Positions 10,502 to 12,262 of a stretch of 64,000 nt of DNA are shown here, in pieces. The first letter of the stretch is position 1. Each line of letters begins with the position of its first letter. Origin of the DNA: a virus (taxonomy: Duplodnaviria > Caudoviricetes); IMG/VR virus record IMGVR_UViG_2547132108_000007, positions 582 through 64,581 of that record; one strand, written 5' to 3'. Below the pieces are notes generated by a model that was not told where the DNA came from, did no database searches, and was given only the letters and a program-made list of their open reading frames with translations. The position numbers were made by a program, and so were the translations under genes.

Positions 10502-11158
10502 ATGGACACCGTCCTTTATATCGGTTTGAGCGTCTTGGACGCGTACGCCACATTGGCGCTAATATATCTTTCCTTCCGCTGGCCGTTCTGGCGCGATTTC
10601 GACCGGCTGACGGTAATTGTCGTGGTGATTTCGGTCGTATCGTACGTAGACCGCATGGTGCTCGATATTGAAGCGTGGGACCCTGCCATACAACTTCTAC
10701 TATACATACTTTCCCTTCGCTACTTTCTTCGAGTCAATTGGTTCTATGCTTGGCCGCTCGCGGTTTTCGGCTACGTTCTCTTCCTACTTGTTCAGTTTTC
10801 GACGTACACGGCGCTGTACGCTACCGGAGTCGTTTCAGCGGGCGACGCGGCGGCTTCCGCGGGTGCCGGTACGTATATAATACAGGCGGCCAATGACGTT
10901 ATTTGCTACGCCGTTTGTGTGGCGATGTACGTTTTTAATCACGGGTTTACGCACGTAGACATACCACCGCATGACGACTATTTACCCGTCCGACAAACAC
11001 GTGGGGATGTCGTGGTGAATATAGCCGGCAGCCTGGCGATCGCAACGTTCATGTACTGGATTCTTAATTATCACGGTCACATTGCGATTGTACTGCCGTC
11101 GCTTGCCGCATCTATTGTCGCTATGGCGTATTTGGCGCGCAGGAAGGAGATCCGCTGA
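10502..11158 (+). CDS. Multi-TM membrane protein resembling an AgrC-type sensor domain with no kinase domain
   Basis: About 218 aa, 6-7 hydrophobic segments, ends RRKEIR with no H-box/HATPase; TGATG-coupled to agrB. Confidence 0.6.
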   Translation: MDTVLYIGLSVLDAYATLALIYLSFRWPFWRDFDRLTVIVVVISVVSYVDRMVLDIEAWDPAIQLLLYILSLRYFLRVNWFYAWPLAVFGYVLFLLVQFSTYTALYATGVVSAGDAAASAGAGTYIIQAANDVICYAVCVAMYVFNHGFTHVDIPPHDDYLPVRQTRGDVVVNIAGSLAIATFMYWILNYHGHIAIVLPSLAASIVAMAYLARRKEIR

Positions 11159-11715
11159 TGTTGACGATAGTTGCTTCGGAAAAACTCGCCTACTTAACAA
11201 AGGAATGGAATCCGGCGGAAACACGCTCGTTCGATGTTTTGCGCTATCAGTACGCTGTGACGCTGAATTTCGTCTCGTACGTAGGGTTGGCGGCAATTGG
11301 CGGCTTACTAACGGGGCATTTCGCCGAAACAATGCTTGCGGCCGGTTCCTTCACGTTACTGCGCGTATTTAGTGGCGGCTTTCACTTCCGATCGCTTGAC
11401 GTCTGCGCAATCGTCACAGCGGCTATATTCGTGGCGATACCGTTGTTGGTGGCGGGGCCGTTGGCCGGATACACGGCACTACTTACGGCGACGGCAGCCG
11501 TACTCGTCGCGACGCGCGCGCCGACTAACCTGCAAAATACGCAATGGGTACGGGGGAGTGATTGTACCCGACTTGCAACCGTCAAGCGAGCGTATAAGGC
11601 TATTGCGGTGGCGATCGTGCTTACGAATTTTATCGTCGATTCCGATGTAATGGCGTTGGCATTCATAACACAGGCGTTGCTCTTATTGCCGCGAAGGGAG
11701 GTGAGCGTACAATGA
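11158..11715 (+). CDS. agrB: AgrB-family peptide-processing membrane protease
   Basis: LRVFSGGFHFRSLDVC carries the AgrB G-G-x-H-x6-C catalytic pair; ATRAP motif; hydrophobic profile. Confidence 0.88.
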   Translation: MLTIVASEKLAYLTKEWNPAETRSFDVLRYQYAVTLNFVSYVGLAAIGGLLTGHFAETMLAAGSFTLLRVFSGGFHFRSLDVCAIVTAAIFVAIPLLVAGPLAGYTALLTATAAVLVATRAPTNLQNTQWVRGSDCTRLATVKRAYKAIAVAIVLTNFIVDSDVMALAFITQALLLLPRREVSVQ

Positions 11716-11837
11716 GGACGACAATCGCGAAGATTATGTCCGTTGCTTCGGCTACGGTGGCTGGCGTATTCGTGTTCGTTTTGAAGGGCGGTATTGGAGA
11801 AATAAAAGCGCCAAATGAATTTTATAACAATAAATAG
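11712..11837 (+). CDS. agrD: AgrD-like propeptide 1 (41 aa) MRTTIAKIMSVASATVAGVFVFVLKGGIGEIKAPNEFYNNK
   Basis: ATGA overlap with agrB; amphipathic leader plus E-I-x-A-P-x-E tail matching AgrD tails. Confidence 0.8.
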   Translation: MRTTIAKIMSVASATVAGVFVFVLKGGIGEIKAPNEFYNNK

Positions 11838-11848
11838 CGAGGAAGGAT

Positions 11849-12262
11849 ATGGAACAATCGCAAACGAACTTTAGGCTTTCATGCTGTAGGCTCGTCAACG
11901 GGGAGGTTATAAAGAAGCCGCATGTTTTAGTTCCCGTTGACGACGTTGTGCTTATCGATACCGTTGATCTGTCTAAATACGATAGGCGACTTCGGATTCG
12001 GACAATAGATGAAGAATACGTCTTCAATATGAGCGGCTCCCTCGCGGCAATGGAGGATATGCTGTCCGACTTTGGCTTTTGGCGCACAGATACGAAAAAT
12101 TTGATTAATATGCGACACGTGGACAGGGTAATTCATAGTATGTTCGCGGCGGAAGCTGTATTTAAGAATACAGAAATACGTGGAACAGTCGCAAAGATCA
12201 AATTAAATCTTTTGAAAGAGGCATTTCCCGAGATACCGGTACTTAGGGGCGGGCTTCTATAG
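11849..12262 (+). CDS. Stand-alone LytTR DNA-binding domain protein (no receiver domain)
   Basis: DDVVLID...SLAAMEDMLSDFGFWRTDTKNLINMRHVDRV matches the LytTR pattern; 137 aa only. Confidence 0.75.
   Translation: MEQSQTNFRLSCCRLVNGEVIKKPHVLVPVDDVVLIDTVDLSKYDRRLRIRTIDEEYVFNMSGSLAAMEDMLSDFGFWRTDTKNLINMRHVDRVIHSMFAAEAVFKNTEIRGTVAKIKLNLLKEAFPEIPVLRGGLL

What the first reader, a model, noticed from the sequence alone, without database searches (positions are those of the whole stretch)
10502..12262. Phage agr-like signalling cassette with no phosphorelay: kinase-less receptor + AgrB + AgrD + receiver-less LytTR
Seen: four tightly coupled genes (TGATG, ATGA overlaps) right after the primase. AgrB keeps the catalytic His-x6-Cys. 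The membrane protein is the size of an AgrC sensor domain but stops where the HisKA/HATPase would begin, and the LytTR protein lacks the REC domain of AgrA. Known: staphylococcal and clostridial agr use AgrC-AgrA phosphotransfer; phage agr genes are known (C. difficile phiCDHM1 carries agrBCD); streptococcal LytTR Regulatory Systems (HdrRM, BrsRM) use a membrane inhibitor plus a LytTR activator without phosphorylation. Inference: a hybrid circuit in which peptide binding to the membrane protein releases or sequesters the LytTR factor, giving an arbitrium-independent phage communication system for lysis-lysogeny or induction. Alternative: a decoy that jams host agr signalling.
Basis: partly seen in the sequence, partly recalled or inferred. 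Interest (0 to 1): 0.92.

Follow-up and report, generated by a model that had tools for sequence, protein, structure and literature searches.

The report
Kinase-free agr-like peptide cassette in prophage
A temperate Paenibacillus-type phage carries a conserved four-gene peptide-signalling cassette (seven-helix membrane protein, AgrB, a small precursor peptide with lysine where a cysteine normally closes the ring, and a bare LytTR DNA-binding protein). It has no kinase or phospho-receiver, so both the signal chemistry and the way it is sensed probably differ from classical agr quorum sensing.

Summary
Window 10502-12262 holds four translationally coupled genes directly after the primase:
- a 218-aa seven-helix membrane protein ("X") with no Pfam family;
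- AgrB, with His76-x6-Cys83;
- a 41-aa AgrD-like peptide;
- a 137-aa LytTR-only protein.

X is not a decayed kinase. Its family has 115 clusters, and essentially all full-length members are 203-247 aa.

The same quartet follows X in 15 of 16 loci that could be read. These include published Brevibacillus phages (Davies, Emery, Abouo), P. larvae phage Harrison, and plain chromosomal sites.

- All 14 peptides paired with an Asp60-bearing X have an invariant Lys at the ring position. The two cassettes whose X lacks Asp60 have Cys or Ser there.
- Near-identical phages or flanks carry strongly diverged versions of all four genes, which looks like pherotype alleles.

The sensing mechanism (X as receptor gating LytTR, as in LytTR regulatory systems) stays inferred.

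Hargreaves et al. 2014 mentioned the Brevibacillus phage cassettes in passing, without the LytTR gene. This scan has already reported the same cassette on other DNA, including the invariant lysine. Verdict: real, a new variant of a known kind, mechanism untested.

The parts
9498..10493 (+). Toprim primase. It is the last gene of the replication block, and the cassette follows 8 nt later with no recognisable promoter of its own.
   Evidence: Pfam Toprim_2 E 1.9e-12. The promoter scan found nothing above the shuffled expectation.
10502..11158 (+). X: a 218-aa seven-helix membrane protein of an unnamed family. It is the candidate peptide receptor, or alternatively an AgrB partner.
   Evidence: - No Pfam or NCBIfam hit; phrog_15604 E 2e-42.
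- AlphaFold model with pLDDT 94.6, pTM 0.91 and seven long helices.
- N-out/C-in topology from family-wide K+R counts.
- Invariant S47, R51, D60, G148; near-invariant D13, P28, Q128 and P155-P156-H157.
11158..11715 (+). AgrB-type membrane cysteine peptidase/cyclase.
   Evidence: PF04647 E 3.4e-16; phrog_10353 E 1e-32; His76-x6-Cys83.
11712..11837 (+). 41-aa AgrD-like precursor. It has a hydrophobic N-terminal part, a K-G-G-I-G core, and an E-I-K-A-P-N-E-F tail. It contains no cysteine.
   Evidence: Translation. The pattern K-x-x-[ILV]-[G/Y], about 4 residues, then Pro (usually P-x-[EQN]-[LF]) is shared by 14 cassettes.
11849..12262 (+). LytTR-only DNA-binding protein of 137 aa, with no receiver domain.
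   Evidence: PF04397 E 2e-8, residues 26-125. A profile of cassette homologues hits ComE 4cbv (E 4e-8) and the AgrA LytTR domain 3bs1 (E 4e-5) over the whole domain.
12295..12326 (.). 13-nt inverted repeat around an ACCCC loop, just after the LytTR gene. It may be a terminator hairpin or an operator.
   Evidence: the repeat finder I1. It is conserved in L005 and L007, with 2 of 7 pairs changed on both sides. Only three sequences were compared, so this is weak.
12475..12717 (-). Divergent 80-aa Cro/CI-type HTH gene. It is syntenic in related prophages.
   Evidence: Pfam HTH_26 E 1.5e-6. The same position is occupied in L005 and L007.
12834..13472 (+). Conserved 212-aa protein of unknown family downstream. 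It is a possible output target, but this was not tested.
   Evidence: No Pfam or PHROG hit. Syntenic homologues in L005 and L007 are 33-38% identical.

Best explanation
This is a self-contained agr-type peptide signalling module that works without phosphotransfer.

Proposed mechanism:
1. AgrB cleaves the C-terminal tail of the 41-aa precursor, recognised through the P-x-E-[LF] segment, and forms the usual acyl-enzyme.
2. The invariant Lys either attacks this intermediate to give a lactam ring or remains a free cationic pharmacophore.
3. The exported peptide is recognised in the outer-half polar pocket of the seven-helix protein X (S47, R51, D60, Q128).
4. X passes the signal on through its conserved cytoplasmic loop (N-x-G-F-[ST]...P-P-H-D) and basic C-terminus. 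It would do so by holding or releasing the LytTR-only protein, as membrane inhibitors do in streptococcal LytTR regulatory systems.
5. The freed LytTR protein then changes transcription.

In this phage the cassette is read together with the early replication genes. Infected or induced cells would therefore broadcast the peptide.

Shown: gene content, family membership of AgrB and LytTR, native absence of kinase and receiver, conservation of the quartet, Lys/Asp60 covariation, and allele-like divergence.

Inferred: peptide chemistry, X as receptor, X-LytTR contact, DNA targets, and the effect on the phage life cycle.
For: - Pfam assigns AgrB and LytTR but no REC, HisKA or HATPase domain. The LytTR profile matches the ComE and AgrA DNA-binding domains.
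- An exhaustive HMMER search for X over 1.84 billion representatives gave 115 clusters. Full-length members are 203-247 aa and none is a kinase fusion.
- X, AgrB, peptide and LytTR follow each other in 15 of 16 readable loci.
- X sits where agrC sits in the agrC-agrB-agrD locus of phage phiCDHM1.
- X is confidently seven-helical and N-out/C-in. Its conserved polar residues lie in the outer half, and a conserved motif lies in a cytoplasmic loop.
- Peptide Lys and X Asp60 covary. There are 14 K-type peptides with D60. The Cys peptide of L018 goes with T60 and the Ser peptide of L021 with S60.
- Davies and Emery carry a second X paralogue without a second AgrB or AgrD. That fits a receptor better than a processing enzyme.
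- All four genes diverge together between near-identical backgrounds. Davies and Abouo have 97.8% identical flanks and a 100% identical integrase, but cassette proteins are only 34-50% identical. Harrison and L011 have a 99.5% identical upstream 182 nt, but proteins are 34-47% identical.
Against: - X shows no detectable similarity to an AgrC sensor. It matches no Pfam family at all, so none of the domains of LRS membrane proteins, and no solved or viral predicted fold.
- The gene order (X upstream, separated from LytTR by agrBD) differs from LRS operons, where the regulator precedes its inhibitor (PMC6193735).
- Two natural fusions point to a biosynthetic assembly: X-AgrB (P0105) and AgrB-AgrD (L016).
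- Asp60 could equally serve Lys chemistry during maturation.
- No LytTR-type direct repeats or other target site were found.
- The Lys/Asp60 covariation rests on two clades, so on few independent events.
Confidence: 0.5

Rival explanations
1. X is a maturation or export partner of AgrB rather than the receptor. It could remove the N-terminal leader (the job MroQ does in S. aureus), help Lys-dependent ring closure with Asp60 as base, or export the product. The LytTR-only protein would then be controlled in another way, for example by the re-imported peptide or by host factors.
For: - X is naturally fused to AgrB in P0105, and AgrD is fused to AgrB in L016.
- X and AgrB are translationally coupled or overlapping in most loci.
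- Asp60 covaries with the residue that would take part in the chemistry.
- The S. aureus pathway needs extra membrane proteins: MroQ (PMC9388083, title and abstract only) and an exporter (a 2026 bioRxiv preprint). Both were seen only as titles and abstracts.
Against: - X has no protease-like motif set. The invariant Ser47 lies in the outer half while His157 lies in a cytoplasmic loop.
- X has no Pfam hit, so it does not match the CAAX/Abi protease family either.
- Davies and Emery have extra X paralogues without extra AgrB or AgrD.
- An orphan X exists with no AgrB nearby (L017).
- The X-AgrB fusion folds without a confident inter-domain arrangement (pTM 0.55). This is inconclusive.
Confidence: 0.22
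2. The cassette interferes with the host's own agr circuit. The bare LytTR protein would occupy AgrA-type promoters as a dominant-negative or constitutive factor, and the peptide would antagonise the host AgrC.
For: - Paenibacillus polymyxa has a canonical agr system with AIPs (PMC12180512).
- The LytTR domain is AgrA/ComE-like.
- Cross-inhibition between AIP types is established for staphylococci (general knowledge).
Against: - The quartet also sits at ordinary chromosomal sites without phage genes (L011, L015, L016, L018). Host sabotage makes no sense there.
- X would be unexplained.
- All four genes co-diverge as a private set.
Confidence: 0.1
3. The peptide is an antimicrobial or toxic RiPP rather than a signal. 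X would be its immunity protein and LytTR its producer-cell regulator.
For: - Multi-pass membrane immunity proteins commonly sit next to small-peptide genes (general knowledge).
- In Davies, Abouo and Harrison the cassette lies in the accessory region near the integrase.
- The allele-like diversity would also fit toxin/immunity pairs.
Against: - AgrB-processed peptides known so far are signals.
- The core is only about 4-9 residues.
- The tight, near-universal link to a LytTR regulator mirrors agr.
- X has a conserved cytoplasmic motif, which is not expected for simple immunity.
Confidence: 0.06

Closest known systems
Cassettes of Brevibacillus phages Abouo (gp44-47), Davies (gp44-48) and Emery (gp53-57), and of Paenibacillus larvae phages Harrison and Paisley (gp38-41)
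   Same: They share the same four genes in the same order. X is 29-36% and AgrB 30-36% identical to the window's proteins. Hargreaves et al. 2014 noted AgrB, a putative AgrD and kinase-less membrane proteins in the three Brevibacillus phages (PMC3901668).
   Different: There the cassette has its own promoter and lies in the integrase/repressor region. Here it follows the primase inside the replication block. The published records call the LytTR gene a 'peptidase', and no paper found treats the four genes as a unit or notes the lysine.
Canonical agr quorum sensing (agrBDCA, Staphylococcus aureus)
   Same: Both have an AgrB peptidase with His/Cys, a small precursor with a C-terminal recognition tail, a multi-pass membrane component, and a LytTR output domain. 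Both show hypervariable alleles between conserved flanks.
   Different: This cassette has no HisKA/HATPase and no receiver domain. Lys replaces the ring-forming Cys or Ser. The output regulator diverges together with the rest, whereas AgrA is conserved across staphylococcal groups (general knowledge).
agr3 locus of Clostridioides difficile phage phiCDHM1 (agrC-agrB-agrD)
   Same: It is phage-borne, has the order membrane component-AgrB-AgrD, and its AgrD also lacks Cys; a Ser sits five residues before the N-Q-P tail, where the ring nucleophile would be expected.
   Different: phiCDHM1 has a full 453-aa GHKL kinase and no regulator gene. This cassette has no kinase but does have a LytTR gene. 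No sequence similarity was found between X and that AgrC.
LytTR regulatory systems (HdrRM, BrsRM of Streptococcus mutans)
   Same: Both pair a receiver-less LytTR regulator with a membrane protein and lack phosphotransfer (PMC6193735).
   Different: LRS have no known peptide-synthesis genes. Their regulator gene precedes the inhibitor. X has no Pfam hit and so carries none of the domains named for LRS membrane proteins, such as the DUF2154 of HdrM.
Arbitrium (AimR-AimP-AimX) of SPbeta-like phages
   Same: It is a phage-encoded secreted peptide that could report ongoing infection, with genes expressed early.
   Different: The parts are entirely different. Arbitrium uses a linear Sec-exported hexapeptide and a cytoplasmic TPR receptor (general knowledge). 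None of the four proteins here shows such domains.

Membership tests
agr quorum-sensing locus (agrBDCA type) | AgrB peptidase with catalytic His and Cys | tested here: met
   PF04647 E 3.4e-16; H76-x6-C83.
agr quorum-sensing locus (agrBDCA type) | AgrD precursor with a ring-forming Cys (or Ser) five residues before the cleavage site | tested here: not met
   The peptide has no Cys, and Lys occupies that place in 14 cassettes. No NCBIfam or Pfam AgrD model hit. The tail motif P-x-E-[LF] is present.
agr quorum-sensing locus (agrBDCA type) | AgrC histidine kinase (sensor plus HisKA/HATPase) | tested here: not met
   X is 218 aa with no kinase domain. The family has no kinase-length member. hhalign against a C. 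difficile AgrC alignment gave probability under 1%.
agr quorum-sensing locus (agrBDCA type) | AgrA response regulator (REC plus LytTR) | tested here: not met
   Only the LytTR domain is present (residues 26-125 of 137) and there is no REC. Cassette homologues are 118-137 aa.
LytTR regulatory system (HdrRM/BrsRM type) | Receiver-less LytTR regulator | tested here: met
LytTR regulatory system (HdrRM/BrsRM type) | Membrane inhibitor gene directly downstream of the regulator in one operon | tested here: not met
   X lies upstream and is separated from the LytTR gene by agrB and agrD. LRS order is regulator first (PMC6193735). X has no Pfam hit.
LytTR regulatory system (HdrRM/BrsRM type) | Direct repeats for autoregulation upstream of the operon | tested here: inconclusive
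   No convincing 9-nt direct repeats at 14-26 nt spacing were found upstream or downstream in the window, or upstream of X in seven other loci.
LytTR regulatory system (HdrRM/BrsRM type) | The membrane protein inhibits the regulator by direct contact | not testable with these tools
X family (phrog_15604; unnamed seven-helix protein of kinase-less agr cassettes) | About 220 aa, seven helices, invariant S47/R51/G148, encoded immediately upstream of agrB | tested here: met
   phrog_15604 E 2e-42 over the full length; alignment of 64 members; structure model; neighbourhoods.

The most novel reading that the evidence does not exclude
Paenibacillaceae and their temperate phages use a phosphorylation-free peptide language.
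- AgrB makes a lysine-closed macrolactam. K plus three residues gives the same 16-atom ring as the classical Cys-plus-four thiolactone.
- A new seven-helix receptor reads it through an Asp60-containing pocket and directly gates a bare LytTR transcription factor.
- Phages carry private alleles of the whole set to count their own kin when choosing between lysis and lysogeny.
Probability: 0.25. Interest if true: 0.88.

Novelty: new variant of a known kind. Interest (0 to 1): 0.72.

Why it matters
If the model holds, it adds a third wiring for Gram-positive peptide signalling, beside two-component agr/com systems and cytoplasmic RRNPP receptors. That wiring is a small seven-helix membrane receptor coupled directly to a DNA-binding protein. 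It may also add a new autoinducer chemistry, with lysine instead of cysteine or serine.

The module is only 1.8 kb and portable. It occurs as sharply diverged alleles between conserved flanks, and it rides on temperate phages of bee-associated and soil bacilli. It is therefore a candidate second family of phage communication systems besides arbitrium, and a compact orthogonal signalling part for engineering.

The Lys/Asp60 covariation gives an immediately testable hypothesis about ligand recognition.

Tried and rejected
- **Fusion fold.** Folding the natural X-AgrB fusion P0105 gave pTM 0.55 and low confidence around the junction. It gives no verdict on X-AgrB packing.
- **Fold searches with the X model.**
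  - PDB Foldseek gave no hit at E <= 0.001.
  - VIA-align wide gave a best Z of 7.8 to Pex3, in the range common for helical bundles.
  - BFVD gave no hit.
  - ESM Atlas returned only the protein's own unnamed family.
- **Sequence searches with X.**
  - The PDB sequence profile search gave 0 hits.
  - hhalign of the X family against phiCDHM1 AgrC and a low-diversity C. difficile AgrC alignment found nothing. This is weak as a negative, because AgrC sensors are very divergent and no Paenibacillus AgrC was available.
- **DNA similarity.** DNA-level search of the cassette in the phage collection gave no match.
- **Regulatory sites.** Promoter and terminator scans were not above the shuffled expectation. 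Searches for LytTR-style direct repeats found nothing convincing. Rfam gave no family in the window.
- **Expression data.** No sequencing run, and so no RNA holder, was listed for the stretch.
- **Literature.** Searches for a lysine or lactam AgrD, or for a description of the four-gene unit, found none. The library lacks most subscription journals.
- **Rejected idea: X as a truncated kinase.** Rejected on family lengths.
- **Rejected idea: X as a Ser-His protease.** Considered unlikely because Ser47 and His157 lie on opposite membrane faces.
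Full report
**1. Observation**

Window 10502-12262 contains four same-strand genes with overlapping or near-abutting ends:
- X, 10502-11158, 218 aa;
- AgrB, 11158-11715, 185 aa, whose start overlaps the X stop as TGATG;
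- a 41-aa ORF, 11712-11837, whose start overlaps the AgrB stop as ATGA;
- a 137-aa gene, 11849-12262.

The preceding gene, 9498-10493, is a Toprim primase and ends 8 nt before X.

Pfam places gene 2 in AgrB (E 3.4e-16) and gene 4 in LytTR (E 2e-8, residues 26-125). No receiver domain is present. X and the peptide match no Pfam or NCBIfam model. AgrB carries H76-x6-C83.

The record is a 64.6-kb IMG/VR provirus with a tyrosine integrase at its left end. It also encodes a DnaC-like loader, a DnaB-like helicase, a PolA-like polymerase, a class II ribonucleotide reductase, a C5 methylase, a portal protein and an SU10-type capsid protein.

**2. The output protein is a true LytTR domain**

A profile of 12 cassette-linked homologues matches the DNA-binding domains of ComE (4cbv, E 4e-8) and AgrA (3bs1, E 4e-5) across the whole domain. 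This includes the conserved N-L-[VI]-N strand, which aligns with F-L-V-N of ComE. Homologues are 118-137 aa.

In the GenBank records of phages Davies, Abouo and Harrison this gene is called 'peptidase'. Tsourkas's comparative paper calls it 'dipeptidyl aminopeptidase'. I read both as misannotations.

**3. X is a family of its own, not a broken kinase**

An exhaustive phmmer search over 1.84 billion representatives gave 115 clusters at E <= 1e-3. Full-length members are 203-247 aa. One member is 291 aa with an N-terminal extension.

The single 408-aa hit (P0105) is X fused to an AgrB domain, not to a kinase.

The AlphaFold model is confident (pLDDT 94.6, pTM 0.91) and has seven long helices. 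K+R counts across 64 members follow the positive-inside rule, giving N-out/C-in:
- loops 1, 3 and 5 and the C-terminus carry 0.9-3.8 basic residues;
- loops 2, 4 and 6 carry 0.06-0.28.

The invariant or near-invariant polar residues D13, S47, R51, D60, Q64 and Q128 then lie in the outer half. The motif G148...P155-P156-H157 lies in the long cytoplasmic loop.

No solved or viral predicted structure, no PDB sequence and no named ESM-Atlas cluster resembles X. hhalign against the AgrC of phage phiCDHM1 and its C. difficile relatives found nothing. That negative is weak, because the AgrC alignment had little diversity.

**4. The quartet is a conserved unit, on and off phages**

I read the neighbourhood of X in the following loci:
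- three published Brevibacillus phages and one P. larvae phage;
- two prophages syntenic with this one, L005 from Paenibacillus sp. HWE-109 and L007 from IMG/VR;
- eleven further contigs.

Among the 16 loci long enough to judge, 15 have X followed by AgrB, a roughly 40-aa peptide, and a LytTR-like protein of 118-137 aa. I confirmed these with HMMs built here. The uncalled AgrB and peptide of L010 were recovered by ORF listing. L017 is an orphan X.

The contexts differ:
- next to an integrase and repressors in Davies, Abouo, Emery, Harrison and L008;
- after the primase in the window, L005 and L007;
- ordinary chromosomal surroundings in L011 (Tad pilus genes), L015 and L016 (SUF operon), and probably L018 (glutamate-synthase gene fragments upstream).

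Named members come from Paenibacillus, Saccharibacillus and unclassified Bacilli.

**5. The peptide has lysine where agr peptides have cysteine or serine**

I aligned the peptides on the conserved tail. Thirteen of the 14 peptides paired with the main X clade read K-x-x-[ILV]-G, and one ends in Y. About four residues and then a Pro follow (usually P-x-[EQN]-[LF]). The window's peptide reads K-G-G-I-G E-I-K-A P-N-E-F. None has a conserved Cys or Ser.

Two cassettes with divergent X proteins have a classical nucleophile at the same place:
- L018 reads C-W-W-I-G, then H-R-P-E-T, then P-A-E-L;
- L021 reads S-V-W-L-F, then H-R-P-E-V, then P-E-E-L.

So Lys is positionally equivalent to the ring-forming residue. 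The K-type tail is one residue shorter.

My inference, which is not shown: if cleavage always falls five residues before the Pro, the K-type product would be K plus three residues. Its lactam ring would have 16 atoms, the same as a Cys-plus-four thiolactone. If cleavage follows the Gly, the ring has 19 atoms. A linear product with free Lys is equally possible.

**6. Peptide and X covary**

Across the 115 representatives, a sub-clade of 17 full-length representatives lacks Asp60 (S/A/T/V/G/N instead) and also lacks the P-P-H motif.

All 14 K-type peptides go with an Asp60 X. The Cys-type and Ser-type peptides go with T60 and S60. This links X functionally to the key residue of the peptide.

It does not decide between recognition (an Asp-Lys pair) and catalysis (Asp as base). 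It also rests on two clades, so on few independent events.

**7. Allele-like divergence**

- Davies and Abouo share 97.8% nucleotide identity over 3.5 kb of left flank and have a 100% identical integrase. Yet their cassettes have no blastn similarity, and the proteins are only 37-50% (X), 47% (AgrB), 36% (peptide) and 34% (LytTR) identical.
- Independently, phage Harrison and the chromosomal locus L011 share 99.5% identity over the 182 nt upstream of X and 88% over 182 nt downstream of the LytTR gene. The four proteins between are only 34-47% identical.

This resembles the hypervariable agr region of staphylococci, but here the output regulator is inside the variable block. That fits a specific X-LytTR pairing, or allele-specific DNA targets. 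Davies and Emery also carry a second X paralogue (33-37% identical to the first) without a second AgrB or AgrD.

**8. Mechanism and rivals**

The best-supported reading is a phosphorylation-free agr variant. AgrB matures the peptide, X senses it outside, and X gates the LytTR protein on the inside, by analogy with the membrane inhibitors of LytTR regulatory systems (PMC6193735). I put this at about 0.5.

The main rival, at about 0.2, is that X belongs to the maturation or export machinery. The X-AgrB fusion and the AgrB-AgrD fusion in Saccharibacillus support it. The extra X paralogues, the orphan X and the cytoplasmic motif speak against it.

Host-agr jamming and a bacteriocin/immunity reading are less likely, because the quartet also lives at plain chromosomal sites and always keeps the LytTR gene.

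In this phage lineage the cassette has no recognisable promoter of its own and abuts the primase. I infer that it is expressed with early replication genes, a timing reminiscent of arbitrium. In Harrison and L011 a strong sigma-A-type promoter precedes X: TTTACG, 17 nt, TATAAT (read from the sequence printed).

**9. What is known**

Hargreaves et al. [quoted passage not shown] They did not notice the LytTR gene.

The phage genome papers only list AgrB in tables. A 2025 review still states that phage agr loci lack a regulator. The P. polymyxa AIP paper concerns classical thiodepsipeptides. I found no description of the four-gene unit, of the lysine, or of any experiment on it. The searched library is incomplete.

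This scan has reported the same cassette on other DNA several times, and one report noted the invariant lysine. Those are unchecked AI notes. I reached the same points from my own calls.

**10. Verdict**

This is a real, intact, conserved module. It is a new variant of a known kind: agr-like biosynthesis joined to LRS-like, kinase-free output. It has a probable new signal chemistry. Its mechanism and its role in the phage life cycle are untested.

Noticed in passing
L016:4602-5252: In a Saccharibacillus chromosome the AgrD-like peptide (K-V-I-I-G S-Q-K-L P-Q-Q-L) is fused in frame to the C-terminus of AgrB, giving a 216-aa product. Enzyme and substrate are one polypeptide.
   Followed up: partly
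L006:6001-10648: X and AgrB are one 408-aa protein (P0105), seen on two contigs. It is followed by a K-F-F-L-Y peptide, two LytTR-only paralogues, and then a complete REC-LytTR regulator plus a HAMP/HATPase kinase.
   Followed up: partly
L001:3265-4669 and L014:3268-4669: Phages Davies and Emery carry two tandem X paralogues (33-37% identical to each other) but a single AgrB, peptide and LytTR. The first 83 codons of Davies gp44 lie inside the stretch that is 97.8% identical to Abouo, so a recombination breakpoint lies within X.
   Followed up: partly
L003:3152-3333 vs L011:691-872: The 182 nt upstream of X, including a TTTACG-17-TATAAT promoter, are 99.5% identical between phage Harrison and a chromosomal locus, while the four cassette proteins are only 34-47% identical.
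   Followed up: yes
window 12290-12370: There is a conserved non-coding block downstream of the LytTR gene in the window, L005 and L007. It comprises TGTCAA, a hairpin around ACCCC with two compensatory pairs, and then ATGGTA...GGTA repeats 16 nt apart. It could be a terminator, an operator or a promoter reading antisense into the HTH gene.
   Followed up: partly
window 12678-12719: An exact 11-nt direct repeat, ATACTTCATCG, occurs twice with 31-nt spacing at the 5' end of the minus-strand HTH gene. It may be chance.
   Followed up: no
L017:4001-4675: An orphan X homologue in Paenibacillus filicis has no AgrB, peptide or LytTR gene nearby. A UniRef cluster name calls a relative 'Histidine kinase' although it is 224 aa.
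   Followed up: no
L009:3407-4207 and L015:4301-4924: In two loci the quartet is followed by a REC-GerE (LuxR-type) response regulator with no kinase gene in view.
   Followed up: no
window 19339-34918: For a temperate phage the element carries an unusually rich nucleotide and replication set: a PolA-like polymerase, a class II (B12) ribonucleotide reductase and a C5 cytosine methylase.
   Followed up: no
L013:6177-6290: The AgrD of phage phiCDHM1 also has no cysteine. A Ser (S-V-W-Y-I, then N-Q-P-K-M-P-K-S-L) sits where the ring nucleophile would be expected.
   Followed up: no
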